Shown: one piece after another, positions 2,293-63,959 of the stretch
How positions within the stretch are numbered: the stretch's first letter is position 1
How the letters are laid out: every line of letters starts with the position of its first letter
Virus record (IMG/VR): IMGVR_UViG_3300005602_000003
Location: 878 to 64,877 of that record
Direction: 5' to 3' (one strand)
DNA: 64,000 bases
DNA from: a virus
Lineage: Duplodnaviria > Caudoviricetes
Notes under the pieces: model-generated
Told to the model about the DNA's origin: nothing
The model's input: the letters and a program-made list of their open reading frames with translations, nothing else
The model's database searches: none
Program-made: the position numbers and the translations under genes

Positions 2293-2344
2293 TTCCTCCT
2301 ATCCGGTCACGAAAAGTTGAACCCGCGATCGCGGGACGACATTT

Positions 2345-2373
2345 CATATACTCTTTAGGGATTAGGGAGTCAA
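2345..2373 (-). promoter_or_regulatory. Sigma70-like promoter
   Basis: Minus strand TTGACT-17 nt-TATATG, containing CTAAAGAGTA. Confidence 0.6.
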
Positions 2374-2377
2374 GCGT

Positions 2378-2570
2378 GGTGAAGGGTTGAAGGGTGAATA
2401 GTTTTTTTCACATCGCAAACTCGCCTATGTTTATACTCCCCTACGGGGCCTATGTGTGGGAGATAAATCAGCCTCACATAGCGACCTTATATCTATTCAT
2501 ACTATTCAACTATTCAGTAATATAATAAAAACAAAGGCTTATCGCTGAATAGTCGGTGAACAGTTGACGA
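2378..2570. other. Putative replication origin (inverted iteron arrays around an AT-rich core)
   Basis: CTATTCA at 2493, 2502 and 2510; inverted TGAATAG/TGAACAG at 2395, 2546 and 2557; TGAAGGG at 2380 and 2388; AT-rich core 2517-2541; immediately downstream of the primase-helicase gene. Confidence 0.6.
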
Positions 2571-2571
2571 G

Positions 2572-4959
2572 TTACCCTCTCGTTTTCCACACATCGGCTT
2601 TTTCGCGCCACCTCCATGCGCCGAACGAGCGTTCCCAAATGTCGCGACATTCTTTCAATTCGGGTATTTTCCACCAATTACCGTCCTTTTTGTGCAATTT
2701 TTCGCAAGACTGTTCACCCAAAAACCGGCCCAATGCGGTCACGTTCACGTCTCCGGGCCTCGTAGAATGTTCCCTCGCGAGGTTCAGTAGAACATGTGCG
2801 GGAACATGCCCGCTCGCTGTCGAATTGACCGGCAACGTCGCGTCCTGGAGCAACGTTGCCCACCATGTTCCGATCGGCGACAAGCTCCGCTCTTTCTGCA
2901 ATCTCAGGGCCTCGTTGTGGATCACTTGGCGCGGATGCCAGTCGCCCAGCTTGGCGCGCTGCAGGTCGAACAGCATGGCGGCGAGCCCGTCTCCGCTCAA
3001 CTCTTCGTGAAGAGCTCTGAAATAGGCCCTGTCCCCCACCTTGGCGGCCGACACATTGAAGATCGCATAACGGCGTTCGTCATGGCTGGTCGGCACCACC
3101 CAATCGGCATTGGCCGCCATGATGACGTGCAGCCGGTTCCGCCACGGCGTTGCGTCGATGCCTTTTTGCTCGATCATGAGCGCTGGCTCGGTCAGCATCC
3201 CCTTGAGCACCGACTCGCCCTGCTTGTCACCGGCCCAGAACGCTTCATCGGCGAACAGCAGCAGGCAATTGCGCAGGTGGCCATTGAACGCCCCGACCAA
3301 GTGCTTGCTGTTGAAGATCTGCAGCCCATGCTGGCCGAACAGCCTCTTGAGCGCGTTCGCGAAGCTCCCCTTGCCGCTCCCCTTGTCGCCGCGGAACACC
3401 AAGGCCACCTCGGCTCGCTCGCCGGGGTGCTGCACCGCCCAGGCCGCGAACCGCAAAATGTAGCCGGCCGCCTCCGCATCTCCGGCCGCCAGCACGTTCA
3501 CGATATGCTCGCGCATTCGTGACCAGTCGCCAGCCTTCGGTTCGACCGCAAAACCGTTCCACAAGTTCAGGTATCCGGCCGGTATCGTGCCTTCTGGTGA
3601 AAGATCAATGCCTTCGTAACTCTTTCTCCCGGGCCACTTCAGCCAATAGGCTCCGATCGGCTTCGATTCGTCAGCAACCTTGACGTACTTATGGGCGTAT
3701 CGTTCGGCGAAACTTTTGAAGCTCTGAAAGGACGGTACGCGCAATTGCGCATCCACTTTGCTAGGCACCCACCCCAGAACGAGGCATTTTCCGCCCATAT
3801 CGCCTATTACGCAGAACTGGTCGTTAAGACTTATCAATGGGTTATTGGGCGTCGTTGCGCCTTTGAACGCGGCGTCAAGTTCCGGCATCGCCTCGGCCGC
3901 ATGATGCCCGTTCGCCTCCTTGACCGGTTCACCCGCCGCAGGCGGGTCGAAAGGGCTGAATTCTTCTGGCACCGTCTCTCGCGGCGTCCGGCTCGGCGGC
4001 GTCCACCCAGGCTGCACCTCGCGCGCCAGGATCACCAAGCGCCCAAAGCCGGTGCGGGTCGGCGGCGAGCGGAACAGGTGCGCCCACTCGGCATCGACAT
4101 CGGCGGCCGTGTACTTGCCGGACTTGGCCGAAAAGTCGTGCCCGAGAGCGCGCCCGGCTTCCGAGCCATCGGTGGCCGCCCAGATCGCCATGATCCCGGC
4201 CTTCCACGCCTTCCAGCCCAGATCCGGGTTTGTGATGACGGCGATCGCCGCAGCCACATCCTCGATCGGCACCGGTTCGTCCAGGCTCGCCGCAAGGTCC
4301 GTCATCGCCTCGCAGGCCGGATCCTTGGCCCATTCCGGCGGCTGCCCGAGCTCAAGACGTTGCTGCGGGGCCTGGGTGCTCTTCGGTTCCCCGGGTCGGT
4401 TTTCGAACCAGTGCAGCAGTTCCGCCGGCAACGGAACGGGCACCGTCTGGTTGAGCCACGCGTAACGCTGGCCGCTGCGGTGCATGGAAGGTGGCACTAC
4501 CACCAGCCCGCCGTCGCCGCGGATGTCGAGCCCGTGGCCATCGTTGGACGGCACCGGGCCACTGGCCGCGTAATAGAGGTGTCGGCCGATCCCAGGCCGG
4601 CCGGATCGAGCCGAGAGGGTCTTCTGCAACGGGCTCTTGATCGCGCTTTTGAGCGTGGCCACGCCGTCAGGGCCGTCGATGTCCACCACCGCAAGCCCGG
4701 AGCGCTGGCCGGTCACCACCCCCACATTGGCGTCGGGCCAGTCGCGCCACCAGGCTTCGAGCTGTGCCGGGTCGGTCGACGCCAAGGCGTGCTGGATGCC
4801 GGTCTTGGGCGGACGCGGGTGCTTGCCGGCCGACTTGCACTTCGCGCCGCGCCAGCAGGTGCAGACGCGCTCGCCGTTGACGACACGGATACTATGAAGA
4901 GGAAGGACGGGCCACCCGCGCGCCGCGCACTGCAGCGCTGCATCTAGTAGGTCGTTCAT
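2572..4959 (-). CDS. Bifunctional primase/polymerase (Prim-Pol) + PriCT-2 + P-loop helicase
   Basis: GWPVLPL, GKHP, ANVGVVTG, VVDID, HLYY, DIRGDGGLVVVPPS; C-terminal Walker A GDKGSGKG and FADEA. Confidence 0.92.
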   Translation of the reverse strand: MNDLLDAALQCAARGWPVLPLHSIRVVNGERVCTCWRGAKCKSAGKHPRPPKTGIQHALASTDPAQLEAWWRDWPDANVGVVTGQRSGLAVVDIDGPDGVATLKSAIKSPLQKTLSARSGRPGIGRHLYYAASGPVPSNDGHGLDIRGDGGLVVVPPSMHRSGQRYAWLNQTVPVPLPAELLHWFENRPGEPKSTQAPQQRLELGQPPEWAKDPACEAMTDLAASLDEPVPIEDVAAAIAVITNPDLGWKAWKAGIMAIWAATDGSEAGRALGHDFSAKSGKYTAADVDAEWAHLFRSPPTRTGFGRLVILAREVQPGWTPPSRTPRETVPEEFSPFDPPAAGEPVKEANGHHAAEAMPELDAAFKGATTPNNPLISLNDQFCVIGDMGGKCLVLGWVPSKVDAQLRVPSFQSFKSFAERYAHKYVKVADESKPIGAYWLKWPGRKSYEGIDLSPEGTIPAGYLNLWNGFAVEPKAGDWSRMREHIVNVLAAGDAEAAGYILRFAAWAVQHPGERAEVALVFRGDKGSGKGSFANALKRLFGQHGLQIFNSKHLVGAFNGHLRNCLLLFADEAFWAGDKQGESVLKGMLTEPALMIEQKGIDATPWRNRLHVIMAANADWVVPTSHDERRYAIFNVSAAKVGDRAYFRALHEELSGDGLAAMLFDLQRAKLGDWHPRQVIHNEALRLQKERSLSPIGTWWATLLQDATLPVNSTASGHVPAHVLLNLAREHSTRPGDVNVTALGRFLGEQSCEKLHKKDGNWWKIPELKECRDIWERSFGAWRWREKADVWKTRG

Positions 4960-5304
4960 TGATCTAGCCTATTGCTTTGTGTTGCTGCTTAGGCTAGAAG
5001 ATCGAGGCGAGCTCGGCCTCCACAGCCTGGGTTTCGTCCACACGTCCCCTTGTCCGACCATCCAGGCCCCCGGCTTCATCCACCGGGGGCCTTCTTCTTG
5101 AGCGTGCCACGGAATCCCGCCACGTTCCATCACCTTCTTGTGACCCCGCTGGCGCGGGGCGAGATTTCCGCTTGACTACATTTTTGGCTTGCACTAAAGA
5201 GTACGGGTACGTTGAAATGTAGAGAACTCAGGACAACAACGGGAGCCGGTCATGGAAGCGGCCCGCCGAAAGGCGGGCATCCATGCGGCACGAGGGAGAA
5301 TCAA

Positions 5305-5604: not shown

Positions 5605-5845
5605 ACACGTTCGCGCAAAGGACTGGCGCGAAGCGATCCCGCTGACGCGGGATGAACTCGGCCGCCTCATCGGCTACTCGGCCCAGTCCATCCAGCTCTT
5701 CGAGCTCGGCCACACACCGCCGCGCAATTTCGTCAATGCCAAACGCAAGGACAGGAAGATAGAGCCCAAGGTCTGGCTGCGCTACAAGGCAGCGTGCGCC
5801 GGCATCGACGCGTGGCTCAAGCACAAGAGGAGGTTCGATTGGTGA
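5591..5845 (+). CDS. XRE-family HTH protein
   Basis: WREAIPLTRDELGRLIGYSAQSIQLFELG. Confidence 0.75.
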   Translation: MPSSEHVRAKDWREAIPLTRDELGRLIGYSAQSIQLFELGHTPPRNFVNAKRKDRKIEPKVWLRYKAACAGIDAWLKHKRRFDW

Positions 5846-6265: not shown

Positions 6266-6622
6266 ATGATCCGCCACAACGAGATCACGATCGACTCCAA
6301 GCGCTGCGCCATCAGGCACCGCGGCGCCGAGGTCTTCTTCAAGTCGCCCGAGTTCCGCAGCCGTTACGAGCCCTACGTTCAGTACCGGCTGCTATGCCAC
6401 CTGATCCTTGGCGGCGCGCAATCGGTCGGGGAATTGTTCGAGCTGATCTACGGCGATCGCGCCGACGGCGGCCCGGAACAAGGACCTCACATCATTTTTG
6501 TTCATTTTTACCATATGCGAGAGCGCTTGCGCCTGCTGTCTTTGTCGTTGCGAAAGTCCAAGGATTGCGGCGTGCTGCGCTATTGGGTGGAGCCCGCCTC
6601 GGCGGCGGGTGAACCCGTATGA
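6266..6622 (+). CDS. Hypothetical protein, winged-helix-like
   Basis: ELFELIYGDRADGGP resembles an OmpR-type C-terminal wHTH; coupled to the polymerase gene. Confidence 0.55.
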   Translation: MIRHNEITIDSKRCAIRHRGAEVFFKSPEFRSRYEPYVQYRLLCHLILGGAQSVGELFELIYGDRADGGPEQGPHIIFVHFYHMRERLRLLSLSLRKSKDCGVLRYWVEPASAAGEPV

Positions 6623-8430: not shown

Positions 8431-8732
8431 TCCACCTGTTCCTGCTGGCCTTCTTTTTCTCGCCAGCTCACGCCGCCGACCTGGCGCTCCCCCGCCTATC
8501 GGCGGGCGAGCCCTGCCTCATCCGCCAATCAACCGGCGCCCCGGTCGTCCCTCACCTCTCGCCCGCCCGCCTACCGGCGGGGTGGGCAGTTTGGCCCGAC
8601 AAGACATGCGCGTCCGGCTTCCGCTGGGGCGACGCTGATCGGTGCGACGTGAGCCGTCCGCCTGCGGCGGATAAACCGGCCAAGGTGGTGGACGACGCGA
8701 GTTGTCCGTATGGATGGCGATGGTCCCGCTGA
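8427..8732 (+). CDS. Small secreted protein
   Basis: Signal peptide MIHLFLLAFFFSPAHA; internal repeat DKTCASGFRW / DASCPYGWRW. Confidence 0.6.
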   Translation: MIHLFLLAFFFSPAHAADLALPRLSAGEPCLIRQSTGAPVVPHLSPARLPAGWAVWPDKTCASGFRWGDADRCDVSRPPAADKPAKVVDDASCPYGWRWSR

Positions 8733-8915
8733 CCCGCCTGACGGCGGGTGAAGGCGGCTTGCCAGCCGTAGGCTGGTTCCGCTTCGTCACCCACGACCGC
8801 GTACTCGACTATTTGAATTGTGGGTGGCACATCGCATCTGTTGACCTTGGTCACCATAGCGAGTATGCTGTACTTCTTGAGTGGCTTTGTGCCTGTCCTC
8901 TGAAGGAACCAAAAC

Positions 8916-9290
8916 ATGCCGACCAACGTCGAAGACCTGGCTGAAGGCTTCTCGCCGTTTGCTCCCGCGCCTCCACCCGCCGAACAGGCGGGCAAGCCCA
9001 CTCGCAAAAAGCGTGCGGCCAACAAACCCGCTCCGCAGGCCAAGACTGCCCCGGCGTCCAAGCCCACTCGCGCCCCTCGCGCCCCTCGCGGCAACGGAGG
9101 CACAGGAAAAGGCACCAAGCACCGCCAGTCCAGAGAACTCCGCCTCCCGGTCTCCGCCCTGTTCGATGCCGCGTCTGGCCTCAAGGTGGAGGACGGCAAG
9201 CTGTGCTACGCCATGATCGAGCAGCTTCAAGGCGTGAGCAAGCAGTCGCGGCGGCGGATCGTGAATGCTTTGAATCGCATCTTTTCCTAG
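8916..9290 (+). CDS. Basic Pro/Lys-rich hypothetical protein
   Basis: AAGGA RBS; low-complexity basic N-terminal half. Confidence 0.7.
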   Translation: MPTNVEDLAEGFSPFAPAPPPAEQAGKPTRKKRAANKPAPQAKTAPASKPTRAPRAPRGNGGTGKGTKHRQSRELRLPVSALFDAASGLKVEDGKLCYAMIEQLQGVSKQSRRRIVNALNRIFS

Positions 9291-10182: not shown

Positions 10183-10905
10183 ATGAACGCCCTCGACCTC
10201 CCACCCGCGCTCGACCGCGCATCACCCGCCTGGGGTCCGATGAACAAGCTTCCGCCATTTACCTACACGGGCCTCAACCTGTATGATGACATCTGCCCGC
10301 ATCAGTTCTACCGGAAATTCATCAAGAAGGACATCAAGTATGTCGAGACTCCGCAGATGGCTGCGGGCAACGTCGCCCACCGAGCGCTTGAGTTACGCGT
10401 TGGTCGCGGCGTGCCTCTTCCTGGTGCTCTGGGTCACCTTGAGCCACTAGTCGCTCCGTTCGACGGCAAGGGCGCCAAGGTCGAGGTGAAGCTGGGACTC
10501 ACCGCTACGGGCGGCACGACTGGGCACTTCTCCGACGACACGGCGGGGCGCTGCCGCATTGACGTTTACATGATCTCGGGCACGTCCGCCTATCTGGTTG
10601 ACTGGAAGACGGGCTCGGTGCGGGAGGACCCGTTCGAGCTCGAAGTCCAAGGCTTGTTCCTCAAGGCGCGCTACCACCAGATTCAGACGATCAAGGCGAA
10701 GTACGCGTGGCTCAAGGAAAAGCGATTTGGGCAGGTGCATGACGTATCGGACACCAAGCGGACCTGGGCGCGCGTCACGGGCATCGTGGAGCGGATGAAA
10801 AAGGAACCCTCGCCCGCCGAAGGCGGGTGGGAGAAGCGCCCAGGCGGACTATGTAAGGCGTGGTGCGACGTTTTTGATTGTGAGCACAATGGTCGGCGCA
10901 AATGA
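10183..10905 (+). CDS. PD-(D/E)XK exonuclease (RecB/Cas4-like)
   Basis: CPHQF, GNVAH, RIDV...LVDWKTG, C-terminal Cys cluster. Confidence 0.85.
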   Translation: MNALDLPPALDRASPAWGPMNKLPPFTYTGLNLYDDICPHQFYRKFIKKDIKYVETPQMAAGNVAHRALELRVGRGVPLPGALGHLEPLVAPFDGKGAKVEVKLGLTATGGTTGHFSDDTAGRCRIDVYMISGTSAYLVDWKTGSVREDPFELEVQGLFLKARYHQIQTIKAKYAWLKEKRFGQVHDVSDTKRTWARVTGIVERMKKEPSPAEGGWEKRPGGLCKAWCDVFDCEHNGRRK

Positions 10906-15238: not shown

Positions 15239-15274
15239 CCCCGCTGGCGCGGGGTAAACCCAAAGGAGACTAAA

Positions 15275-48064: not shown

Positions 48065-48079
48065 CCCGCCGCAGGCGGG

Positions 48080-52717: not shown

Positions 52718-53354
52718 GATGCCTCCTCCTGATCGGCAACTTCGCGATCTTTTTCAGAAACATGCTGGTCGTAGCCACGCATCAGGGCGTTCGCGAACCA
52801 TGTGATCATCCAGCCTTCGTCAAGCGGATTTCCCTCCGGGTCTCGATATCCAAGATCTTCGTTGGCTATCTTGCAGAACGCCTTGGCCCAGTCCTGGGCG
52901 TCGAAGGACGGCAGAGGCCAATCAGGACGTTCGTTATCGGGCCGCCCACTGGCGGCCCATTCTGCCTCAAAAGCAGCGTGATCACCGCCGAGAATTATCG
53001 GGTATCCATTGCTCATTGGCTGCCTTCCATGGTCTTCCGCGCTTCCTGCATCAACTCCTCTACAACCGGGAGAAGCGTGCCGTCGTCATCCTCGATCGTC
53101 TCGTCCGCATAGGCAAGCATGCCCAGCTTGCAAATCACCGGACGGGCCGGGTCGAACGCCGGATTGCCGGGCGGCACGCGCCAGAGAATCACCCGCCTTC
53201 TGGCGGGTTCGTGATCCCCGAGCGACCAGAACTCGCCCTTCATCTCGTCGCCGAACGGCTTGCGGATGTGGCTGCGCCGGTCGGGATGTGCCAGGAAGAA
53301 CGAGGCATCCTGCTTGTCGATCCAGGCTTGGGGGAGGTGTACGTCGTCAGCCAT
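52714..53354 (-). CDS. Two hypothetical proteins (52714-53016, 53013-53354)
   Basis: Overlapping start/stop coupling. Confidence 0.6.
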
Positions 53355-53863: not shown

Positions 53864-55299
53864 GCTGCCCTCCTGTGTTCCTTAACCTTCTGCGCAAGTG
53901 CGCCGACGATACGCTCGAACACTTTCTCCCAACTTCGCGTCTTGTCCTGCGGGAAAACCCGGTGGTTCGGATACCAGAGAACGTCTTTTCCGTCCACGCC
54001 AAGGCGATAATCTCGGCCTAGGTAGCTGTAAGGCACCCAGCACTCCTTGCCGACCAGTCCGCAGATATGCGCGAGCGCGGACTCGCAGCAAATCACCAAG
54101 TCGAGACCCTTGAGGAGCGCGGTGGTATCCGAAACATCAGAGATGAATGGCGACAGATCCTTGACCAGCCCGGACATCGCGGTGGTGTAGAGGTCGCCCT
54201 TGCGCTGGCTGCCCGGCGAGTCCACCTGCAACGAGTAGAGCTGCACGCCAGCCACCCGATAGAGTTCCAAGAAGTGCTCGACCGGGATGCTCCGGTGGCG
54301 GTCGATGTCGTTCTGAGGCGAACCCGCCCAGGCGATGCCGACGTGAAGCTTCTGGTCCGGCACCTTCCAATCGGAGCGGATCGAGTAGTCCGGGTAGGAG
54401 ATGTGTGGCGTGTTGCGGATTTCCTCGTCGGTCAGGTCGAGCGCCGCCGGGAGACTGATGAAGGTCGACCAGTAATCAGCGGCCGGGAACGGCGTCGTGG
54501 GCTGGAACGGAATGATGTTGACGTTGGGCAGGCGCATGAACGCGTGCTGGAACACGCGCATGAGCTGCTCCTGAACGTAAAGATGCACATAACGGGCTCG
54601 CCCCGCGGCAGCGGGGACGAACCGAGCGAACGACAGCGTGTCGCCGAGACCCTGGTCGGCCTGGATGAACACCTGCGCGTCCCTCTGGCCTTCCCAGCGC
54701 GGGTAGGGGTACGACAGGAAGTTCTTCAGCCGGTATTCGAACCGAACTTCCATCTCCTTGAAGCCCTTGGCGAGCTGGCGGTCGAAGATCAGCGCGAGCG
54801 CGAGGCCGAACCGGAAGTTGGAACGGTGTATCCCGTCGCCTTCGAGCTCGATCGCCTTGCGCCAGCAGCCTACGGCTGCCGAGGTGTCGCCCAGGTCGCC
54901 GTGGACCAGCGCCAGGTCGGCCCACGGGTTGGCCATGTCGGGGTCGATGCTCAAAGCCTCCTTGGCGCAGGCGAAGGCTTCCTCGGTCTCGCCCAGATCA
55001 CGCAGGCGCCAGCCGAGGTTCGAGAGAATTTCGGCCTTGCGAGTGGGCGCGGGGTTGCAACGAAGAGCGCGGCGCCATGCCGCGACCGCGGCCTTGAGGG
55101 CGTAGATGTCGGACACGCGGTTGCCGTACTGGAACAACGGCTCGTCCCAGGTCGGATCCGCCCAGATGGCGGAGGAGAAGAACTGGAACGCCAGCTTCCC
55201 GGCTTCCGGCCCCGCTGACGCGGGGTTGCCCGGCGTCATGCACTGGACGGCCTGATTGAACAGCTTGACGGCGGCGGCGCGGTCACCCATTAAAGCCAC
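53860..55299 (-). CDS. TPR-repeat glycosyltransferase (GT-B, GT9-like C-terminus)
   Basis: N-terminal TPRs; DQGLGDTLSFARF, VGIAWAGSP, RSIP, YSLQ, LDLVICCESALAHICGLVG. Confidence 0.88.
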   Translation of the reverse strand: MALMGDRAAAVKLFNQAVQCMTPGNPASAGPEAGKLAFQFFSSAIWADPTWDEPLFQYGNRVSDIYALKAAVAAWRRALRCNPAPTRKAEILSNLGWRLRDLGETEEAFACAKEALSIDPDMANPWADLALVHGDLGDTSAAVGCWRKAIELEGDGIHRSNFRFGLALALIFDRQLAKGFKEMEVRFEYRLKNFLSYPYPRWEGQRDAQVFIQADQGLGDTLSFARFVPAAAGRARYVHLYVQEQLMRVFQHAFMRLPNVNIIPFQPTTPFPAADYWSTFISLPAALDLTDEEIRNTPHISYPDYSIRSDWKVPDQKLHVGIAWAGSPQNDIDRHRSIPVEHFLELYRVAGVQLYSLQVDSPGSQRKGDLYTTAMSGLVKDLSPFISDVSDTTALLKGLDLVICCESALAHICGLVGKECWVPYSYLGRDYRLGVDGKDVLWYPNHRVFPQDKTRSWEKVFERIVGALAQKVKEHRRAA

Positions 55300-55468: not shown

Positions 55469-56257
55469 TCACGCCGCTACCTCCCCTTGCCCCGCGTCAG
55501 CGGGGTCCGGGTTCAGCCCGCGGGCGCGGGCCGCTTTGATCAACACTTCGATCTGCACCAGCTTGGTGAAGGGCTTGCCGGTGCGGTCTTTCATCGCTGG
55601 ATCGTTGTTGAGCCAGCGACGAACATAGAGCCGAATGTCGCCAGCATCCCGGTGGCAGCCGTTGTGCAAATTCCACGACGGGAAAGCCGCGACTGCGTTC
55701 TGAACCCTCGTCAATACATCCTGCTCATAAGGATCGGGTTCCAACAATGAGAACTTCCCTTTGCCAACCTTGCGATAGCCATAGGGCACATTGCCGATAC
55801 AGCCCTGACGTTCGCGCTTGAGTGTGCGGCCCTCGCCCATGCGCTGGTTGATCCGCATCCGCTCGAAGTCGGCGACGCCTGACAAAATTGTGAATACCAG
55901 CTTGCCGACCATCGAGTCGGCGATCGGCTCGTAGCCGAAATCCGCGATGATGACGCCGATGCCGCGGTCGGTCAGATCGTCGATCATCGCCAGTGCGTTG
56001 CGAGCCGAACGGAACAAACGATCGAGCTTGGACGCCACGATGATATCACCGCGCTTGGCGTGCTCCAGCATCTCCTTCCCGGCCGGACGTTCGGCGAGCG
56101 GCTTGGCCCCGGACACGGCATCGTCCGTGAAATACGCAATATCGAACGCCTCGACTCCGCGCGCCATCGCCACCGACTTGATCTTGCGGCTCTGCTCCTC
56201 ACGCGTCCCGCCGTCATCTTGCCCCTTCGTGCTCCATCGGCTGTACCCGAGCAACAT
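55469..56257 (-). CDS. Serine recombinase (resolvase/invertase family)
   Basis: GYSRWST, DDAVSG, RP, VASKLDRLFRS, FER..I..R, GNVPYGY; AGGAGGGG RBS. Confidence 0.9.
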   Translation of the reverse strand: MLLGYSRWSTKGQDDGGTREEQSRKIKSVAMARGVEAFDIAYFTDDAVSGAKPLAERPAGKEMLEHAKRGDIIVASKLDRLFRSARNALAMIDDLTDRGIGVIIADFGYEPIADSMVGKLVFTILSGVADFERMRINQRMGEGRTLKRERQGCIGNVPYGYRKVGKGKFSLLEPDPYEQDVLTRVQNAVAAFPSWNLHNGCHRDAGDIRLYVRRWLNNDPAMKDRTGKPFTKLVQIEVLIKAARARGLNPDPADAGQGEVAA

Positions 56258-56343: not shown

Positions 56344-56673
56344 TCAACCCGCCTTTCGGCGGGCACGGACTTTCTTTTTCCGCCGGAAGGCCCGCTTCTT
56401 TTTGGGCTTCACCTCGGACGCGTTCCTCGAAGCAAAACCGCCACGCGCTTCGTGGATAATATCGCTGATGAACGACGGCAGCGGGTTCACGATCGGCTGC
56501 AAAGCATCAGGCGACACCGACACTTTGAAATGCTCGACCAAGGCATCCAGCTTCCACTGAATACCCCGGACCACGTGCTTGATCGAGTCGAGATCCTGCC
56601 CAATGCCGGCGCGGTAGCCGGCTTCCTGAACAAGGAATTTCCTAACGGCTGGCGGCAATCTTGACGGCGCCAT
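56344..56673 (-). CDS. Hypothetical protein with basic C-terminal tail
   Basis: Ends KPKKKRAFRRKKKVRARRKAG. Confidence 0.55.
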   Translation of the reverse strand: MAPSRLPPAVRKFLVQEAGYRAGIGQDLDSIKHVVRGIQWKLDALVEHFKVSVSPDALQPIVNPLPSFISDIIHEARGGFASRNASEVKPKKKRAFRRKKKVRARRKAG

Positions 56674-57646
56674 CTTGCTTCTCCTTTGCTACCTGCTCGG
56701 CCACCCAGGCGTAGAGCTTCCGCAACCCCTCGTAAAGCAGCGCGGATGGCGCCCAGCCGAGCTTCTCCTTGATCAGGTCGTTATTCGAGGTTCTGCCGGC
56801 GACGCCGAGCGGCCCCGGGATGTGCTTGATAGCGATGCGCTTGCCGGCTATGTCCGCCGTCAGGCGGACGAGGTCGTCGATCGAGATCATTTCGCTGGAG
56901 CCGAGGTTGACCGGTCCCGCGAAATCCGACTCCATGAGTCTTCGGATGCCGTCACAACACTCGTCGACGTAGAGGAACGATCGAGTCTGGGTGCCGTCAC
57001 CAAAGACTTCGACTTGCCCGCCTTCGGCGGGTGCTTCTGCCACCTTTCGGCAAATTGCCGCTGGTGCTTTTTCTCGACCACCTGTCCAAGTACAGAATGG
57101 ACCAAACACATTATGCAGCCGAGCGACACGAATGCTAAGAGAACAATTGCGTGCGAATGCGTCATAGAGCTTCTCCGCGAACAACTTTTCGAGACCGTAG
57201 GCGCTGTCGGGACGAGCGGGCCATGCCATATCCTCGCGCAGCTCACAGTGATCCGAGTTCATCTGGATGAAGTCCGGGTAGATGCAGGCGCTCGACGAGA
57301 AGAACACCTTCTTGACCTTCGCCTTGACGCAAGCCTCCAGCACGTTGAGATTGATCAGTGCCGAGTTGGCCATGATCGTGGCGTCATTCTGGCCTGTGAA
57401 AATGTACTCGGCGCCCCCCATCTCGGCGGCGAGGCTGTAGACTTCGTCACCCGGCCGGAACATCTGCTGCCAGAAGCCCATGCGGAAGCGCAGATCAGTG
57501 AGCTCGAACTCGTCGGCCGCGGTCGGTTCGAACTCGGGCATCTTGCGATCGATGCCGAGCACGCTGTAGCCGTCTTGCTTGAGGCGCTTGACGAGCGCAG
57601 AACCTATAAATCCGCCCGCGCCCGTCACAATCGCTGATTTACTCAT
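56642..57646 (-). CDS. GDP-mannose 3,5-epimerase-like NAD-dependent epimerase
   Basis: GAGGFIG, LAAEMGG, FSSSACIYP, YGLEK, HNVFGP, GGREKAPAAICRK, GDGTQTRSF, GPLGVAGR. Confidence 0.9.
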   Translation of the reverse strand: MSKSAIVTGAGGFIGSALVKRLKQDGYSVLGIDRKMPEFEPTAADEFELTDLRFRMGFWQQMFRPGDEVYSLAAEMGGAEYIFTGQNDATIMANSALINLNVLEACVKAKVKKVFFSSSACIYPDFIQMNSDHCELREDMAWPARPDSAYGLEKLFAEKLYDAFARNCSLSIRVARLHNVFGPFCTWTGGREKAPAAICRKVAEAPAEGGQVEVFGDGTQTRSFLYVDECCDGIRRLMESDFAGPVNLGSSEMISIDDLVRLTADIAGKRIAIKHIPGPLGVAGRTSNNDLIKEKLGWAPSALLYEGLRKLYAWVAEQVAKEKQDGAVKIAASR

Positions 57647-57857: not shown

Positions 57858-57858
57858 C

Positions 57859-59115
57859 TTACACCGGCGGAAGCGAAGAATGATCGAACCGGAACGACGA
57901 CAGCCACGGCTGCGTCTCGCGACACTGGATGCCATGGAACGTACAGCCCGGCGTCAGGGCTTCAATCCGAACGTTCCGATAGCTGACGCCGCTCGGGACC
58001 ACAAGCTGGCTCACCCCGCGATCGCGGGGTAAATCGGGCGCGATCTGGTAGCCGGATGCTAGGTCGGTCACTCGGAACCTGCCGGGGCCTTGGACCGTGA
58101 ATTCGCAAGGGCCGAGGATGGGTACTTCCAACCACGGTGGCGGGCCATTCGTGCTGTCGGTCGACTCGGGCACGTTGCCGGCCTTCCACCCGAACGGTCC
58201 CCAGCCTTGACTGTTCACTAATCGCCAGTCGCCCGAGTAGATGCCGCCGATGCCGGGGATCTGGTGCGGGAAAACCACGCTCCCATTCGATGAAGCCAGC
58301 AGGCGCTCGGCGCCTCCGCCATAGGTCTTGATGCCGTTTCGGATCGCGTAAGTGTGCCGAATGAAGTTGTCGAACGCGTCGTCGTTCCGCAGCAAGTCCA
58401 TCCTGCCGTCCGCCATCTTCAACCCTTGGGCCGCGATGTCCTGATCGAGCATGGTGGCGAGCGAAGGTGTGAGGGCGAGACTGGCAAGACCGTGCTTGGC
58501 CAGGATGGCGTCCCAACTCCAGTCACTCGTCAGCGGCTGCTCGCCGCCGCGAAAGGCCCACCAGGCGCCGATGTCGAGGCCGGTGAGCTGGACGAAGACC
58601 TGACGGTTCTCGGTAGTCCAGCCGGTACGGTAGTGGTCCAGGATGATCTTGGCGGCGCGACGGGTGAAGATGACCATCCCGGCGCCGAGGTTGTGGAAAA
58701 TTCCATAGCCGTCGCGTTGGATCAACAGGCGATCCTCGTACGAGCGGGCGGAGACGGCGCCGACTTCGAGGCCGTCATCCTGACCACGCGCGAAGAGCGC
58801 CATCGTGGTCGGATACCACGTAGGCTCAAGCAGCACGTCGTTCTCGCACAGCCCGACGAACGCATAGTCCGCGTTTTCCAACATCTTGGTCAGGGCGTAG
58901 ACGATCGCAGCGTCGGCGCCGCCGTGGACGTTCACGAACATGGCGTGGAACGCAGACCCGTATTCCTTGGAGATCATGTCGGCGTTCTTCGGCGAGCTCC
59001 CGTCAACCCAGAAAATATCCAGCCCGCCGCCGGATGCGCCGAGCAGCGGGGTAACGGAACGGCGCGTGCAGTCGACCCGGTCCTTGGTGAGGAAGCTGAC
59101 CGCGACTTTGCTCAT
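57859..59115 (-). CDS. GT-A fold glycosyltransferase-like protein
   Basis: Start MSKVAVSFLTKDR; WVDGS, LCENDVLL (xND) and SDW motifs. Confidence 0.7.
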   Translation of the reverse strand: MSKVAVSFLTKDRVDCTRRSVTPLLGASGGGLDIFWVDGSSPKNADMISKEYGSAFHAMFVNVHGGADAAIVYALTKMLENADYAFVGLCENDVLLEPTWYPTTMALFARGQDDGLEVGAVSARSYEDRLLIQRDGYGIFHNLGAGMVIFTRRAAKIILDHYRTGWTTENRQVFVQLTGLDIGAWWAFRGGEQPLTSDWSWDAILAKHGLASLALTPSLATMLDQDIAAQGLKMADGRMDLLRNDDAFDNFIRHTYAIRNGIKTYGGGAERLLASSNGSVVFPHQIPGIGGIYSGDWRLVNSQGWGPFGWKAGNVPESTDSTNGPPPWLEVPILGPCEFTVQGPGRFRVTDLASGYQIAPDLPRDRGVSQLVVPSGVSYRNVRIEALTPGCTFHGIQCRETQPWLSSFRFDHSSLPPV

Positions 59116-60152
59116 AGCACTGTCTCCAGGTCGTCCAAGAACGCGAGGGCGGCTTCGATCGTGCTGGTCGGCCAAAACGACTCGGAGTTGGAACAGAAAA
59201 ACACATGCCTGACGAGGTCGAGAGTCGGTTGCGGACAAGGGAACTCGTGGGCGTCCAGCCAGTCGGCGAGGCGGGCGACGTTCTCCATGCCGTCGATCTC
59301 GCCGCGAAGATCCTTCACGAGATCGTGCTTATTCCTCTCCTGATACGCGAAGGGTCGGCCGAAGTGTGTGACGTATCCCTTTTCGCGCATGACACGCTGC
59401 ATGATCAAGCTGGCGTAGATGTCGTCATAACGGCCGACGCCGGGCAGCATGAAGAACGCGGGCGCGAGTTCGCGCACGAACGCGGTGTTCTGCGAGTTGG
59501 TGATCGTCCAGGTGTCTTTGGGGTCGACCACGAAACCGGACTTGAGAACTTCGTCCACCCGCCTGACGGCGGGCGAGCGGACGATGCGCTCGACCGCGGA
59601 GGTGTCGGGATCGCCCAGGATCATGCCTTGGGCCAAACCGATCTCGGCGTCGACCACGGGGGTGAACGTAGCTTGCCCCGCTGACGCGGGGTCGATCGGG
59701 AAGCCGCGCTGCGTTGCCGGAGGCGTGAGGAACTGGCCGGGGTCGAGCCAGCCGGATGGAGAAGAGGCTTGGAGGCCGGAAAACGGCTTGGCATACGTGT
59801 CGAGTAAAAATTGAAACTGAAGAAAGTAATTCGGGTCCATCGGGATGTTGTCGTCATCGATACTGATGATCACATCCGCGCCCCACCCCAAGGCTTCGAG
59901 CACCGCGATGTTCCGGCGCTGGATGCAACTCCACGGAATCAATTCACAACATTTATAACCGAGGGACTTCTGCCTTTCGGGCGGATACCATTCCGTGTTC
60001 GACAGGTTCGTGCAAAAATTGTACGTATCCACGATCGGAGACTTCTCGTCACCCACACAAAAAAACCTCACGCTTGCAGCCGGATCAAAGCGCCTAAAAA
60101 GTGCAAGCACTGTGGGCACGTTTATCGTCGTGAGAATCAGCGCCGTTTTCAT
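59112..60152 (-). CDS. RGP/STELLO (DUF288, GT75)-like protein, possible NDP-sugar pyranose-furanose mutase
   Basis: LTTINVP, VGDEKSP, RRNIA, IDDDN, RGFP, GDPDTSA, NSQNT, GRYDDI, QERNKHDL.KDL..E. Confidence 0.8.
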   Translation of the reverse strand: MKTALILTTINVPTVLALFRRFDPAASVRFFCVGDEKSPIVDTYNFCTNLSNTEWYPPERQKSLGYKCCELIPWSCIQRRNIAVLEALGWGADVIISIDDDNIPMDPNYFLQFQFLLDTYAKPFSGLQASSPSGWLDPGQFLTPPATQRGFPIDPASAGQATFTPVVDAEIGLAQGMILGDPDTSAVERIVRSPAVRRVDEVLKSGFVVDPKDTWTITNSQNTAFVRELAPAFFMLPGVGRYDDIYASLIMQRVMREKGYVTHFGRPFAYQERNKHDLVKDLRGEIDGMENVARLADWLDAHEFPCPQPTLDLVRHVFFCSNSESFWPTSTIEAALAFLDDLETVL

Positions 60153-60693: not shown

Positions 60694-60880
60694 TAGCTTT
60701 CTCCCCCTCGGATTCACCTGCCCCCGCCTGCGGCTCGCCCGCCAGTCGGCGGGACCACTGATCGAAAATATCCCGCATCATCCACGACATGGACCGCCGC
60801 TGCCGCTTCGCTTCCTTGCGCACGGCGGCGCGCATCTCGCGGGAGAGGCGGACGGTCGTGGGAAAATCTGAAAGTCCCAA
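60677..60880 (-). CDS. Ribbon-helix-helix (Arc/CopG-like) regulator
   Basis: PTTVRLSREMRAAVRKEAKRQRRSMSWMMR. Confidence 0.8.
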   Translation of the reverse strand: MGLSDFPTTVRLSREMRAAVRKEAKRQRRSMSWMMRDIFDQWSRRLAGEPQAGAGESEGEKANEDRV

Positions 60881-61041
60881 GTGTTTGATCCGCTAGTTCA
60901 ACCCGCTGACGCGGGTCAAGGAAAACGACCGGACGAGCCTCGCGAGGGGGTTTGGGGGGAGCAAAACCCGTCCGGCCGTGTCGCCTGTTCCCCACATCTC
61001 GCCCGCCTCTCGGCGGGTGAACGTGCAGGTGACAGACAGGG

Positions 61042-61787: not shown

Positions 61788-62138
61788 CTACTTGAGCGGT
61801 TCACCCGCCGTTGGCGGGGCTCCGGGCTGCGCGGCACGCAGGTAGAGCAGCACCTGGGCGATGACGGCTGAGCCGTCAGCTCCGATGGACTTGGCGGCTA
61901 AATCCAGGATGGAGTCCTTGGCGGTCCCGCCTGTGGCGGGTGAACCTGCCGAAGGCATGGTGCCAGCCAGCCACGACAATGCCTGGGGCGGCATGAAGAT
62001 CACGACGCACTGCGGCATGCCGGATGGGCAGGGGATAGCGGCTTGCCCGGCGGCAGCCGAGGCGGCGGGTTGCTGGGCGAAAGCAGACGACCCGATCAGA
62101 CAAGACGCAGTGACGCAAGCCGTGAAAACTCGGCGCAT
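61788..62138 (-). CDS. Secreted hypothetical protein
   Basis: Signal peptide ending SAFA-QQ. Confidence 0.65.
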   Translation of the reverse strand: MRRVFTACVTASCLIGSSAFAQQPAASAAAGQAAIPCPSGMPQCVVIFMPPQALSWLAGTMPSAGSPATGGTAKDSILDLAAKSIGADGSAVIAQVLLYLRAAQPGAPPTAGEPLK

Positions 62139-62340: not shown

Positions 62341-62349
62341 GATAGCCTC

Positions 62350-62514
62350 CTAGATGCGTCCAACCAGGACGAGGATAAGCACGATGATGAGGATCAGCCC
62401 GAGGCCGCCGCCTCCGTAATAGCCAGTGCCGTAGAAGGGACCGCCGCCGAAACCACTGAAGCCGCCGAGCAGGATTATCACGAGAATGATAAGCAGGATG
62501 GTGCCGATCGACAT
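62350..62514 (-). CDS. DUF3309-family small membrane protein
   Basis: Manual translation MSIGTILLIILVIILLGGFSGFGGGPFYGTGYYGGGGLGLILIIVLILVLVGRI. Confidence 0.85.
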   Translation of the reverse strand: MSIGTILLIILVIILLGGFSGFGGGPFYGTGYYGGGGLGLILIIVLILVLVGRI

Positions 62515-62625
62515 CTAGGTTCTCCGGTGTGGGCCGCGATGGCGGAAGAGGTATAGCAGCAAAACAATCTCGTTGCCAATGAACCGCTGCTGGATGGCGT
62601 CCCACCACATTGGGTTCACCCGCCG

Positions 62626-62967
62626 CTAGGCGGGCTCCAGCTTCTTCGGCGCTTGACCCGCGTCAGCGGGTTGGACCGGCACGAGCATCTCGGTGAAAAT
62701 GCCGATGTCGGTTTTGCGGATAGGACGGAAACGGCGACTTCCAAACGAAGGCTCCTTCTCACGCACGACTCCGTCAGGGCAGGTATACATACGCGTCTTG
62801 TTTATGATCTCTTCGACGTACACCCCCAACTCGAATTCCGATTCAAACCCGCGAATTGTGTAAATGCGCCCTTCGACAGGCAGAATCTCGTCGCCGTAAC
62901 CCGGACTACGCTCAGGAGGCGGAGGCCGCCCGTCTATGCACACCACCTGCTGCCCGATCTCGAACAT
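62626..62967 (-). CDS. Conserved phage hypothetical protein
   Basis: FEIGQQVVCID...GRIYTIR...RFRP...TDIGIF. Confidence 0.75.
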   Translation of the reverse strand: MFEIGQQVVCIDGRPPPPERSPGYGDEILPVEGRIYTIRGFESEFELGVYVEEIINKTRMYTCPDGVVREKEPSFGSRRFRPIRKTDIGIFTEMLVPVQPADAGQAPKKLEPA

Positions 62968-63068
62968 CACGGTTTCTCCCATCGATCCTGAAACGTCCTG
63001 CCGACATCGTCGGTCGTGCCCGGCACGTTGCATGCTAACATGTTGCCCACGGGATTGCAGCCCGGAGG

Positions 63069-63959
63069 CTAAGAGGGCTTGCCGGTGAAAAGTTCACCCG
63101 CCGTCAGGCGGGGCGCTCCCAGCATGTTCAGCCTCAGATAGTCGGAGCGCTGGCCGAAGGCGGCGCCGAGCGCGATGCTGAAGGCTACGAACGTCAGAGC
63201 ATAGAGGATGAAGATGTGCTTACGAAGGTTTTGTGTTGGTTGGTTCATGTTCACCCGCCTCCGGCGGGCATGGCCGGCGGATCGACGAAGCGAAGGTGGA
63301 CGACGTTGCTGGCGCCGGGGGCTACCACGAAGAGTTTTCCGTGCGTAGCCGATAATGCCGTGACGTAGAGCTCGTCGCGGTCCCACCGGATCTCGATCTC
63401 GCCGCCAGGGATCGTGTAGCGTACCACGGCGCGTTCGTGAAGGAAGAGCCGGGGGCGATCTTGCCCCGCGCGAGCGGGATCGACCTCAATGGCGGACGGC
63501 ACGAGGCCGACCGCGTGGGCGAGCTGGTTGTCCTTGTGCTCCAGATCGAGTTGAAGACGCGTGATGAGCTGCTGAGCCCAGAGCGGGAGGGTGCGGGGAT
63601 CCTTGGTGTATTTGTTGCGGGCCATCAAACTATCCACGGTCTCGGAAGGTTGGGCGACCGGGGCACCCAGATGCACTTCCAGATGCCCCGGCATCGGCAA
63701 CAGGGCCTGTGCCATCGCCGACTTTGCGCGGCGCGTCAGTGACGCCTGCCAACAACGCCGCCTCCAGACGCGCAGCTACAGTACCACACGTCAGGTCTCG
63801 TACGATCCGCTTCGCCAACGAGTTGACGAAGGTCGTCGTCTTATCATCCCGGCGCGGCTTGTACCAGTCGACCGCCTCGACGATGCACGGATGCTCCTTG
63901 AGGAAGCCACGGATTTGGCCCTCAACGATCGGCCGGATGATTTTTTCCAAAGGGTCCAT
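63069..63959 (-). CDS. Three hypothetical proteins (63069-63248, 63251-63625, 63630-63959)
   Basis: Closely spaced co-oriented ORFs. Confidence 0.6.

What the first reader, a model, noticed from the sequence alone, without database searches (positions are those of the whole stretch)
2322..63478. Genome-wide code of about 55 GC-clamp hairpins with G-N-A loops
Seen: a 14-17 bp inverted repeat CCCGC(C)-loop-(G)GCGGG recurs roughly once per 1.1 kb on average, in clusters. Read on the appropriate strand, most loops begin with G and end with A (GCA, GAA, GGA, GTA, GTCA, GAAA, GATA, GAGA, GCTA, GGCA, GCCA, GCGA), closed by C-G. Stem variants are compensatory (CCTGCC/GGCAGG at 13499, TCCGCC/GGCGGA at 8657 and 20336, GCCGC/GCGGC at 36214), and many copies carry a GGTTCA or TTGA flank. 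Known: C(GNA)G and C(GNNA)G are extra-stable single-stranded DNA mini-hairpins with a sheared G.A pair, and such loops are used by phage N4 hairpin promoters. Inference: the phage maintains a dispersed structural signal read on ssDNA or extruded cruciforms. Candidates are Prim-Pol priming sites, nick or modification sites, loading sites for a phage protein, or nuclease-blocking elements. The G-N-A strand does not track transcription direction, which argues for a DNA-level rather than mRNA role.
Basis: partly seen in the sequence, partly recalled or inferred. Interest (0 to 1): 0.92.

Follow-up and report, generated by a model that had tools for sequence, protein, structure and literature searches.

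The report
Dense GC mini-hairpin family in phage
A soil phage genome carries about 55 copies of one tiny, perfectly paired GC hairpin, many written straight through its genes; it looks like a phage counterpart of bacterial REP repeats, and its job is still unknown.

Summary
CCCGC-N3-8-GCGGG occurs 55 times in the window, against 2.5 expected from dinucleotide shuffles. Inside my ORF calls it occurs 41 times, against 4.5 expected from synonymous-codon shuffles. In 41 of 55 copies the loop is G..A on one strand.

Single-mismatch and wobble copies sit at chance level, while compensated stems are in excess. The G..A strand ignores gene direction (16:21). The tetraloops follow the DNA rule GNNA rather than the RNA rule GNRA. 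These points favour a DNA-level hairpin.

- A one-sided (N)CAAG tag lies 3' of the hairpin on the coding strand (14:1 here, 10:2 in relatives).
- Copies sit near gene borders.
- Some hairpins were built in place by codon replacement inside conserved proteins.
- Some sites are shared with relatives but read in other frames.

The family is limited to this phage and its two nearest relatives (55, 25 and 12 copies; 0-8 in 12 others). It does not follow the primase type.

One acidobacterial genome has GTAG-headed REP-like elements with the same core and tag.

Verdict: a REP-like, DNA-level hairpin family of unknown function, and a new variant of a known kind.

The parts
2322..2335 (.). CCCGC-GATC-GCGGG; between ORFs 2046-2183(-) and 2572-4959(-)
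3932..3946 (+). CCCGCC-GCA-GGCGGG; inside primase ORF 2572-4959(-), linker; TGAAC 3' on - strand
5145..5158 (-). CCCGC-TGGC-GCGGG; divergent intergenic region; same sequence at matching place in G001 (27584)
5262..5277 (+). CCCGCC-GAAA-GGCGGG; divergent intergenic region; G001 27512 at matching place
5638..5651 (-). CCCGC-TGAC-GCGGG; inside ORF 5591-5845(+)
6593..6609 (-). CCCGCC-TCGGC-GGCGGG; inside ORF 6266-6622(+), 10 nt before DNA pol start; TGAAC 3' on + strand
8491..8506 (-). CCCGCC-TATC-GGCGGG; inside ORF call 8427-8732(+)
8566..8581 (-). CCCGCC-TACC-GGCGGG; inside ORF call 8427-8732(+)
8657..8671 (-). compensated stem variant TCCGCC-TGC-GGCGGA
8733..8748 (-). CCCGCC-TGAC-GGCGGG; directly after stop of ORF 8427-8732(+); TGAA 3' on + strand
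8762..8776 (+). compensated stem variant CCAGCC-GTA-GGCTGG
8976..8992 (+). CCCGCC-GAACA-GGCGGG + CAAGCC; inside ORF 8916-9290(+); same place in G004 (551), other reading frame
10813..10827 (+). CCCGCC-GAA-GGCGGG; inside exonuclease ORF 10183-10905(+)
11788..11802 (+). CCCGCC-GCA-GGCGGG; inside SNF2 helicase ORF 11680-13287(+)
13499..13513 (+). compensated stem variant CCTGCC-GCA-GGCAGG
15010..15024 (.). CCCGCC-ACA-GGCGGG; C-terminal part of ORF 14165-15238(+); TGAAC 3' on + strand
15071..15085 (+). CCCGCC-GCA-GGCGGG; ORF 14165-15238(+); GTAG directly 5' on - strand
15124..15139 (-). CCCGCC-TCCC-GGCGGG + CAAG on + strand; ORF 14165-15238(+)
15155..15169 (+). CCCGCC-GCA-GGCGGG; ORF 14165-15238(+); TGAA 3' on - strand
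15240..15253 (-). CCCGC-TGGC-GCGGG; between stop of 14165-15238(+) and RBS of 15275-15631(+)
20336..20351 (-). compensated stem variant TCCGCC-TGTC-GGCGGA; convergent intergenic region
20474..20489 (-). CCCGCC-TATC-GGCGGG; convergent junction, 9 nt from stop of 20498-20857(-)
21279..21292 (.). CCCGC-GGTC-GCGGG; intergenic; GCAAG 3' on - strand
21934..21948 (-). CCCGCC-TAC-GGCGGG; inside ORF 21598-21978(-)
27647..27661 (+). CCCGCC-GCA-GGCGGG; inside ORF 26609-28168(-)
30621..30636 (+). CCCGCC-GGCA-GGCGGG; directly after stop of 30637-30927(-); CAAG 3' on - strand
30700..30714 (.). CCCGCC-AAC-GGCGGG; inside ORF 30637-30927(-)
33913..33927 (.). CCCGC-CCGCC-GCGGG; start of tape-measure-like ORF 30928-33975(-)
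33941..33954 (+). CCCGC-GTCA-GCGGG; start of ORF 30928-33975(-); ACAAG 3' on - strand
34050..34064 (+). CCCGCC-GGA-GGCGGG; C-terminus of ORF 33975-35630(-); TCAAG 3' on - strand; G002 18590 nearby
35507..35519 (.). CCCGC-GGC-GCGGG; ORF 33975-35630(-); ACAAG 3' on - strand
36214..36227 (-). compensated stem variant GCCGC-TGAC-GCGGC
36484..36499 (.). CCCGCT-CACA-AGCGGG; junction 35802-36470(-)/36489-36929(-); CAAG 3' on - strand; G001 59116 at matching junction
37289..37302 (+). CCCGC-GTCA-GCGGG; fills space between stop of 37303-39600(-) and RBS of 36929-37276(-)
42680..42694 (.). CCCGCC-ATC-GGCGGG; directly after stop of 42695-43870(-)
47064..47078 (-). CCCGCC-TGC-GGCGGG; ORF 46731-47159(-)
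47107..47121 (+). CCCGCC-GGA-GGCGGG; ORF 46731-47159(-)
48065..48079 (+). CCCGCC-GCA-GGCGGG; fills the 15 nt between two convergent stop codons; G001 48580 at matching junction
52363..52377 (+). CCCGCC-GCA-GGCGGG; ORF 52212-52499(-)
52464..52477 (-). CCCGC-TTTC-GCGGG; ORF 52212-52499(-); GCAAG 3' on - strand
53192..53207 (.). CCCGCC-TTCT-GGCGGG; conserved part of ORF 53013-53354(-), made by substitutions only
54602..54615 (+). CCCGC-GGCA-GCGGG; conserved part of TPR ORF 53860-55290(-), made by substitutions only
54865..54879 (-). compensated stem variant GCAGCC-TAC-GGCTGC
55211..55224 (-). CCCGC-TGAC-GCGGG; ORF 53860-55290(-)
55491..55504 (+). CCCGC-GTCA-GCGGG; C-terminus of recombinase ORF 55469-56257(-); GCAAG 3' on - strand
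55517..55530 (.). CCCGC-GGGC-GCGGG; ORF 55469-56257(-)
56348..56363 (-). CCCGCC-TTTC-GGCGGG; 3' end of ORF 56344-56673(-)
56853..56868 (+). compensated stem variant TCCGCC-GTCA-GGCGGA
57017..57031 (-). CCCGCC-TTC-GGCGGG; inside epimerase domain of ORF 56642-57646(-), one-codon insertion plus substitutions; CAAG 3' on - strand
58015..58028 (.). CCCGC-GATC-GCGGG; ORF 57859-59115(-); same place in G003 (11131), decayed in G001
59558..59573 (-). CCCGCC-TGAC-GGCGGG; ORF 59112-60056(-); variants at same place in G001 and G003
59677..59690 (-). CCCGC-TGAC-GCGGG; ORF 59112-60056(-); GCAAG 3' on - strand
60738..60753 (.). CCCGCC-AGTC-GGCGGG; ORF call 60677-60835(-)
60902..60915 (-). CCCGC-TGAC-GCGGG; intergenic; the one CAAG tag on the non-coding side (TCAAG 3' on + strand)
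61002..61017 (-). CCCGCC-TCTC-GGCGGG; intergenic; TGAAC 3' on + strand
61804..61818 (.). CCCGCC-GTT-GGCGGG; ORF call 61788-62018(-); TGAAC 3' on - strand
61926..61940 (.). CCCGCC-TGT-GGCGGG; ORF call 61788-62018(-); TGAAC 3' on + strand
62619..62634 (+). CCCGCC-GCTA-GGCGGG; stop codon of ORF 62626-62982(-) lies in the loop; TGAAC 3' on - strand
62657..62670 (+). CCCGC-GTCA-GCGGG; ORF 62626-62982(-); TCAAG 3' on - strand
63097..63112 (+). CCCGCC-GTCA-GGCGGG; ORF call 63069-63254(-); TGAAC 3' on - strand
63254..63268 (-). CCCGCC-TCC-GGCGGG; last codons of ORF 63251-63715(-); the TGA of the TGAAC flank is its stop codon
63465..63478 (+). CCCGC-GCGA-GCGGG; ORF 63251-63715(-); GCAAG 3' on - strand

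Best explanation
What it is (shown): a lineage-specific family of about 55 perfect GC mini-palindromes, or about 62 with compensated stem variants. The form is CCCGC(C)-N3-5-(G)GCGGG with a C:G closing pair and a G..A loop on one strand. About a quarter carry an unpaired (N)CAAG(C/T) tag 3' of the hairpin on the coding strand.

The copies are kept perfectly Watson-Crick. They are created and kept in place by substitutions and 1-5-codon indels, at gene junctions and at protein positions that tolerate change. In form they are REP-like tagged stem-loops.

How it most likely works (inferred): the unit acts as DNA, not as mRNA. When the duplex is transiently single-stranded or negatively supercoiled (replication, transcription bubbles), it snaps into an unusually stable C(GNA)G or C(GNNA)G-capped hairpin or cruciform. 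A structure- and sequence-specific factor reads the CCCGC(C) stem. The CAAG tag gives polarity on the coding strand, which is the non-template strand and, if replication runs with the genes, the lagging-strand template.

The three hairpin-rich phages share no clade-specific gene and differ in primase type, and the same core plus tag occurs in GTAG-headed REP-like elements of an acidobacterial genome.

The benefit to the phage is not determined. Candidates are supercoil or gyrase handling, loading or priming, a nuclease barrier, or punctuation at gene ends.
For: Excess over chance: 55 observed against 2.5 expected, and 41 against 4.5 inside ORFs. Family hairpins with 6-bp or longer stems: 51 against 0.8. 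All other hairpins with 6-bp or longer stems: 107 against 74.7 +/- 10.3. The excess is therefore specific to this stem sequence.

DNA-type features:
- 41 of 55 loops are G..A or T..C.
- GTCA/TGAC is the commonest tetraloop.
- The mini-hairpin review gives GCGNAGC and GCGNNAGC with any N as the extra-stable DNA motif.
- A C:G closing pair is worth about 2-3 kcal/mol over G:C.
- The G..A strand against the coding strand is 16:21 here and 10:11 in relatives.

Pairing (observed against shuffle expectation):
- 6-bp arms at distance 0, 1 and compensated 2 from the consensus: 35, 5 and 9, against 0.07, 2.5 and 1.3.
- 5-bp arms at distance 1: 24 against 27.5, with G-T/T-G pairs 4 against 3.5.

Hairpins built in place inside conserved proteins:
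- 54602 and 53192 arose by substitutions only, including amino-acid changes.
- 57017 arose by a one-codon insertion plus substitutions in an epimerase domain.

Shared sites in other reading frames or with compensated stems:
- 8976 matches G004:551; the identical GGCGGGCAAGCC is read in a different frame.
- 58015 matches G003:11131, and the G001 copy is decayed.
- 59558 matches variants in G001 and G003.

Tag orientation: (N)CAAG is 14 on the coding strand to 1 opposite, among the 51 copies with a defined gene direction, and 10:2 among 47 hairpins in G001-G004. Background after a GCGGG that is not in a hairpin is 2-3%.

Lineage: 55 copies here, 25 in G001, 12 in G003, and 0-8 in 12 other relatives that are complete or nearly so. 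G001 and G003 are the closest by protein identity, and no gene is private to the clade.

Primase: G001 has a VapE-type primase-helicase.

Bacterial counterpart: genome G051 holds GTAGGAC(A/G)GA-CCCGCC-NNN-GGCGGG-CAAGC elements. It has 7 copies of the core plus CAAG against a control of 0. Only 22 of 401 Acidobacteriota genomes searched hold any copy.
Against: - Nothing here shows that the DNA folds in vivo. A 5-7-bp stem needs strong supercoiling or single-strandedness.
- The enrichment near gene borders fits an RNA role equally well or better. The median distance to a border is 68.5 nt against 170 nt for random positions (p = 2e-7). A hairpin sits at both convergent junctions (20474, 48065). 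Many abut stop codons or precede ribosome-binding sites. The CAAG tag is gene-oriented.
- The defining REP tags are missing: GTAG lies directly 5' in 2 of 55 copies and CGTC in 2 of 55.
- Most copies lie inside ORFs, which is unusual for REPs.
- No Y1 transposase was found in the phage.
- The six Y1_Tnp loci fetched from three Acidobacteriota genomes are not flanked by family hairpins.
- The host is unknown. The bacterial counterpart rests on one incomplete genome with 7 copies.
- Perfect arms could also be kept by templated (quasi-palindrome) correction rather than by selection. I could not separate the two.
- The broader flank pattern that gave 26:5 was defined after I had seen the data oriented by gene direction. 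TGAA alone is 8:4, which is not significant.
Confidence: 0.4

Rival explanations
1. RNA-level punctuation. The hairpins act in the phage's polycistronic mRNAs as barriers to 3'-exonucleases, as attenuators or weak terminators, or as processing or ribosome-stalling signals at cistron ends. This is what is proposed for many bacterial REPs.
For: - Copies are close to gene borders: 47% lie within 60 nt, against 23% for random positions.
- Density is 14 copies in 8.4 kb of non-ORF sequence, 24 in 22.9 kb of short ORFs and 17 in 32.7 kb of long ORFs.
- Hairpins fill the space between a stop codon and the next ribosome-binding site at 15240, 37289 and 42680, and between two convergent stop codons at 48065.
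- G001 has hairpins at the matching junctions 48580 and 59116.
- The CAAG tag is oriented with the genes.
- Predicted RNA stability is -8 to -12 kcal/mol.
- The REP paper reports REPs mostly downstream of ORFs, tags that supply stop codons, and some intragenic units.
Against: - The loop strand is random relative to genes.
- Half of the sense-strand loops are U..C, which gains nothing in RNA (energies).
- Most tetraloops are not GNRA.
- There are essentially no G-U pairs, whereas the REP paper says G-T pairs are frequent in REPs taken to act as RNA.
- There is no U-tract: T at +3 and +4 occurs in 0 and 1 of 51 copies. Relatives do carry canonical hairpin plus T-run terminators: G001 31857 and G004 9216 and G002 49059.
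- At least 21 copies lie inside aligned coding sequence.
Confidence: 0.22
2. Selfish REP-like mobile elements. Hairpin-plus-tag units are copied into single-stranded phage DNA by a host Y1 (RAYT or IS200/IS605-type) transposase and survive only where they do little harm.
For: - The form is REP-like: a short GC stem-loop plus a one-sided unpaired tag, stem subfamilies, units inside genes at protein termini, and tags that supply stop codons.
- The same core plus tag occurs in a GTAG-headed bacterial repeat.
- By my reading of the 21 alignments, about 10 hairpin sites show small insertions in this phage relative to G001.
- The polar tag would fit strand-specific insertion into the lagging-strand template. 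That property of this transposase family is recalled, not checked here.
Against: - Several hairpins were made in place by substitutions without any indel, in conserved codons (54602, 53192). In 57017 the CAAG already existed as conserved Gln-Val codons in a relative without the hairpin.
- No excess of decayed copies.
- Loops are very diverse.
- No transposase in the phage.
- Y1_Tnp genes in candidate bacterial genomes are not flanked by the family.
- 401 Acidobacteriota genomes hold at most 12 copies of the commonest 15-mer.
Confidence: 0.12
3. Priming or loading signals for lagging-strand synthesis. An SSB-resistant mini-hairpin with a 3' start site would act as at the phage G4 complementary-strand origin or at RSF1010 ssiA with RepB'.
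For: - Mini-hairpins sit at the G4 origin and in ssiA, which is read by the primase RepB' (review passages).
- The spacing of about 1.1 kb is of Okazaki-fragment size (the fragment size is recalled).
- The tag lies on the coding strand, which is the lagging-strand template if forks run with the genes (inference).
- Two conserved hairpins lie beside the primase-helicase gene in this phage and in G001, and one does in G003.
Against: - G001 carries the family with a non-orthologous VapE-type primase-helicase.
- Relatives with Prim-Pol homologues (27-50% identity) have 0-12 copies.
- The G..A strand is random relative to the tag (7 same, 17 opposite, p = 0.06) and relative to the genes.
- The copies are clustered, not evenly spaced.
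Confidence: 0.1
4. Decoys that mimic host CRISPR repeats (solitary repeat units acting as RNA anti-CRISPRs), or N4-like hairpin promoters.
For: - Hairpin plus a transcribed 3' tag, host- or lineage-specific, with more copies giving more effect. Solitary repeat units in viruses are described in PMC10651486; I saw only the search listing and the start of the abstract.
- One weak match to Rfam CRISPR-DR28: 18.7 bits against a gathering score of 35, E = 0.65.
- N4 mini-vRNAP binds GGA- or GAA-capped 5-bp hairpins.
Against: - No CRISPR-DR family reached E of 10 or better over the whole window, and only 1 of 5 hairpins matched in the 286-nt stretch.
- Loop length and stem length vary, unlike a repeat.
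- The loop strand is random.
- No RNA polymerase gene among 92 ORFs.
Confidence: 0.05

Closest known systems
Bacterial REP elements (GTAG- and CGTC-tagged palindromic repeats; PMC3733652, abstract and passages read)
   Same: - Short GC-rich stem-loops (stems 5-13 bp, short loops) in many dispersed and clustered copies.
- A 4-5-nt unpaired tag at one end only.
- Subfamilies with complementary stem changes.
- A preference for gene ends, tags that supply stop codons, and some units inside genes at protein termini.
- One acidobacterial genome has GTAG-headed repeats with the same CCCGCC-NNN-GGCGGG-CAAGC core.
   Different: - The tag is (N)CAAG or TGAAC, not GTAG or CGTC.
- No outer stem.
- About three quarters lie inside ORF calls.
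- No G-T pairs and no decayed copies.
- Loops are diverse but obey G..A.
- The density of 0.86 per kb is, from recalled REP counts, several times that of REP-rich bacteria.
- The carrier is a phage.
- No associated RAYT was found.
Extra-stable DNA mini-hairpins d(GCGNAGC) and d(GCGNNAGC) at the phage G4 origin, RSF1010 ssiA and N4 early promoters (PMC13037366, passages read; PMC3201870, abstract and passages read)
   Same: A C:G closing pair with a GNA or GNNA loop carrying a sheared G-A pair, on a short GC stem. These are read as folded single-stranded or extruded DNA by a primase or polymerase.
   Different: The known cases are one to three sites per replicon with a known reader protein and a fixed strand. 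Here there are about 55 sites, the G..A strand is random, there is no RNA polymerase, and the family does not follow the primase type.
Dispersed regulatory repeats of phages: PeSL promoter/stem-loop cassettes of T4-type phages (PMC2839356) and the 17-bp palindromes of Cluster O mycobacteriophages (PMC4351075). For both I saw only the listing and the start of the abstract. Stoperators of Cluster A mycobacteriophages are recalled.
   Same: Tens of copies of one short motif spread over a phage genome, concentrated at gene borders and in fast-changing early regions, and specific to a lineage.
   Different: Those motifs are intergenic and act as double-stranded protein sites or promoters. Here the spacing between arms varies (3-5 nt), which fits a fold rather than a dimer site, and most copies are inside genes.
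DNA uptake sequences (USS/DUS) and Chi-type dispersed signals (recalled, not checked)
   Same: A density-dependent short signal that builds up in place by point mutation, including inside genes at permissive codons and in preferred reading frames.
   Different: Those are linear sequence words read on one strand. Here the selected feature is a perfect hairpin.

Membership tests
REP elements (GTAG/CGTC super-families) | Short palindromic GC-rich stem-loop (20-40 bp unit, stem 5-13 bp) in many copies | tested here: met
   55 copies of 13-17 nt, plus a 4-6-nt tag, with stems of 5-7 bp.
REP elements (GTAG/CGTC super-families) | Unpaired GTAG (or CGTC) tetranucleotide at one end | tested here: not met
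   GTAG lies directly 5' in 2 of 55 copies and CGTC in 2 of 55. Both are 0 of 25 in G001 and 0 of 12 in G003. The tags actually found are (N)CAAG in 15 of 51 copies and TGAA in 12 of 102 flanks.
REP elements (GTAG/CGTC super-families) | Predominantly extragenic, downstream of ORFs | tested here: not met
   41 of 55 copies lie inside my ORF calls, and 21 of those are confirmed by protein alignment. Density is nevertheless highest outside ORFs and near borders.
REP elements (GTAG/CGTC super-families) | Association with a RAYT (Y1 transposase) flanked by the repeats | tested here: inconclusive
   No Y1_Tnp among the 92 phage ORFs. Y1_Tnp genes exist in 3 of the 5 Acidobacteriota genomes searched, but none of the 6 fetched loci is flanked by a family hairpin. 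The host is unknown.
DNA mini-hairpin signals (G4 ori / ssiA / N4 promoter type) | C:G-closed GNA or GNNA loop on a short GC stem | tested here: met
   41 of 55 loops are G..A on one strand, all closed by C:G.
DNA mini-hairpin signals (G4 ori / ssiA / N4 promoter type) | A cognate reader (primase or virion RNA polymerase) and a fixed functional strand | tested here: not met
   No RNA polymerase. The family does not follow the primase type. The G..A strand is random.
Intrinsic (Rho-independent) terminators | GC hairpin followed by a T/U run | tested here: not met
   T at +3 and +4 occurs in 0 and 1 of 51 copies. In the consensus scan of 1-20000, none of the 24 sites is a family hairpin in its own fold; one overlaps 10813 with another pairing. 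20001-64000 was not scanned with that tool.
CRISPR repeats / solitary repeat units | Match to a CRISPR direct-repeat family, with constant length and sequence | tested here: not met
   No CRISPR-DR hit at E of 10 or better over the whole window. One sub-threshold hit to DR28 in a 286-nt stretch. Loops and stems vary.

The most novel reading that the evidence does not exclude
A phage lineage has written a dense set of supercoil-extrudable C(GNA)G DNA mini-hairpins through its own genes, changing amino acids where needed. It keeps them perfectly paired as a distributed DNA-level signal, read with polarity through a CAAG tag by a host REP-recognising factor. If so, the phage exploits or mimics its host's REP system, for example for supercoil handling, loading or priming, or protection from nucleases. 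This would be the first viral REP-like system, and a case of selection on DNA secondary structure overriding protein sequence.
Probability: 0.3. Interest if true: 0.8.

Novelty: new variant of a known kind. Interest (0 to 1): 0.6.

Why it matters
If the hairpins are read as folded DNA, this phage clade offers a compact system for asking what REP-like elements do. It has 55 sites in 65 kb, with natural relatives at 25, 12 and 0 copies.

It also lets one ask how strongly selection on DNA structure can reshape coding sequence. Several hairpins cost amino-acid changes in conserved proteins.

The family may give a sequence handle on the unknown host, because the same core plus tag occurs in an acidobacterial repeat.

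If the hairpins instead act as mRNA punctuation, they are a phage example of U-less stabiliser hairpins. That would be useful for annotating soil phages, but less surprising.

Tried and rejected
- Known phage records: blastn of 28000-35900 found no match. The first try was one base too long.
- tRNAs: none.
- Rfam at gathering thresholds: no hit.
- Rfam at E of 10 or better: only chance-level hits and none at a hairpin. The CRISPR-repeat idea was therefore dropped to a minor rival.
- Sigma-70 promoter-like sites in 1-20000: 6 found against 6.3 expected.
- By eye I looked for a -10 element behind TTGAC or TGAAC flanks, including an ECF-like reading, and saw no consistent one. This is not a formal test.
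- HIP1-type palindromes: GCGATCGC occurs 6 times and is not a driver.
- Host REP search:
  - Five bacterial genomes hold 2-25 copies of CCCGCCNNNGGCGGG per 3.4-7.9 Mb.
  - 401 Acidobacteriota genomes hold 0-12 copies of the commonest 15-mer.
  - GCGGG(N)CAAGYC on its own is not above control in five of them.
  - Other phyla were not scanned.
- Two-hairpin scans found other, unrelated REP-like families and arrays with the same stem but fixed loops and other flanks.
- Sequencing runs: no RNA holder listed. The only full holder is a soil metagenome that may be the source, kept as contigs, so no reads were laid.
- Clade-specific gene that could read the hairpins: none found in a profile over 11 relatives.
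- Literature: the exact 15-mer and its complement were found in 0 papers. A search on REP-like elements, RAYT and phage genomes gave no title on phage REP-like hairpins among the 15 listed of 135; I saw the listing only. Supplementary files were not consulted.
- No structure prediction, complex prediction or protein database search was run, because none bore on the question.

Full report
Setting. The window is bases 878-64877 of a 64,877-bp virus record with direct terminal repeats. GC content is 60%. The only full holder among public runs is a soil metagenome.

My own rough codon-usage gene caller gives 92 ORFs. PHROGs and Pfam name the following:
- a Prim-Pol/DUF5906 primase-helicase (2572-4959, - strand);
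- a family A DNA polymerase (6619-8430);
- a PD-(D/E)XK exonuclease, an HNH-like endonuclease and an SNF2 helicase;
- tail, tape-measure-like and major head proteins;
- a serine recombinase, an epimerase, a Lar-like protein and a DNA methyltransferase fragment.

No RNA polymerase and no Y1 transposase were found.

Noticed in passing
whole window: Several 6-bp palindromes are strongly avoided relative to a Markov expectation: CTCGAG 1 against 26.9, CAGCTG 1 against 20.8, GGGCCC 1 against 12.3, TCCGGA 3 against 14.7, CACGTG 3 against 13.9 and AGGCCT 4 against 16.9. This looks like restriction-site avoidance and may help to find the host.
   Followed up: no
window 15254-20473, 21949-27646, 39617-41169, 44948-45757: Blocks whose ORFs score poorly with the phage's own codon model, and mostly lack homologues in relatives, contain no family hairpin. 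They may be recent acquisitions that have not yet gained hairpins. Alternatively, hairpins may need GC3-rich codon usage.
   Followed up: partly
L117:7502-10249 (G001): The closest relative has replaced the Prim-Pol/DUF5906 primase-helicase with a 915-aa VapE-domain protein at the same genomic position. This is a non-orthologous swap of the replication initiator within a close clade.
   Followed up: partly
G001 31857 and G004 9216 (record coordinates): Hairpins with the same kind of stem, each followed by the identical tail ctttttcttttt, look like canonical intrinsic terminators in relatives. G002 49059 has a T-run too. In the part of the window scanned (1-20000), no family hairpin has such a tail.
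   Followed up: partly
L280, L256, L308, L252, L281, L321 (metagenome contigs): A very dense REP-like family of the form ..CCGT-CCCGCC-AGG-GGCGGG-GGA.., with 26 copies in one 12.6-kb contig of 48% GC. It uses the same stem as the phage family but has a fixed loop and fixed flanks.
   Followed up: no
L253:3462-3653 and L314:60-294: Regularly spaced arrays whose repeat contains CCCGCC-NNN-GGCGGG: four units at 59-nt spacing in L253 and six units at about 43-nt spacing in L314. The first could be a CRISPR array. Neither was examined.
   Followed up: no
window 4960-5421: The divergent intergenic region beside the primase gene holds two hairpins that are kept at the matching place in G001. It also has a sigma-70-like TTGACT-17-TAAAGA 13 nt after hairpin 5145. 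It is a candidate control or origin region.
   Followed up: no
window 56642-60056: An NAD-dependent epimerase/dehydratase and a STELLO-like glycosyltransferase lie among the early genes. They may modify a surface sugar or the DNA.
   Followed up: no
window 14165-15238, C-terminal 80 codons: A Pro/Ala/Gly-rich tail holds four hairpins in this phage. It holds one or two in each of G001, G003 and G004 at about the same place. It is a hot spot shared well beyond the hairpin-rich clade.
   Followed up: partly
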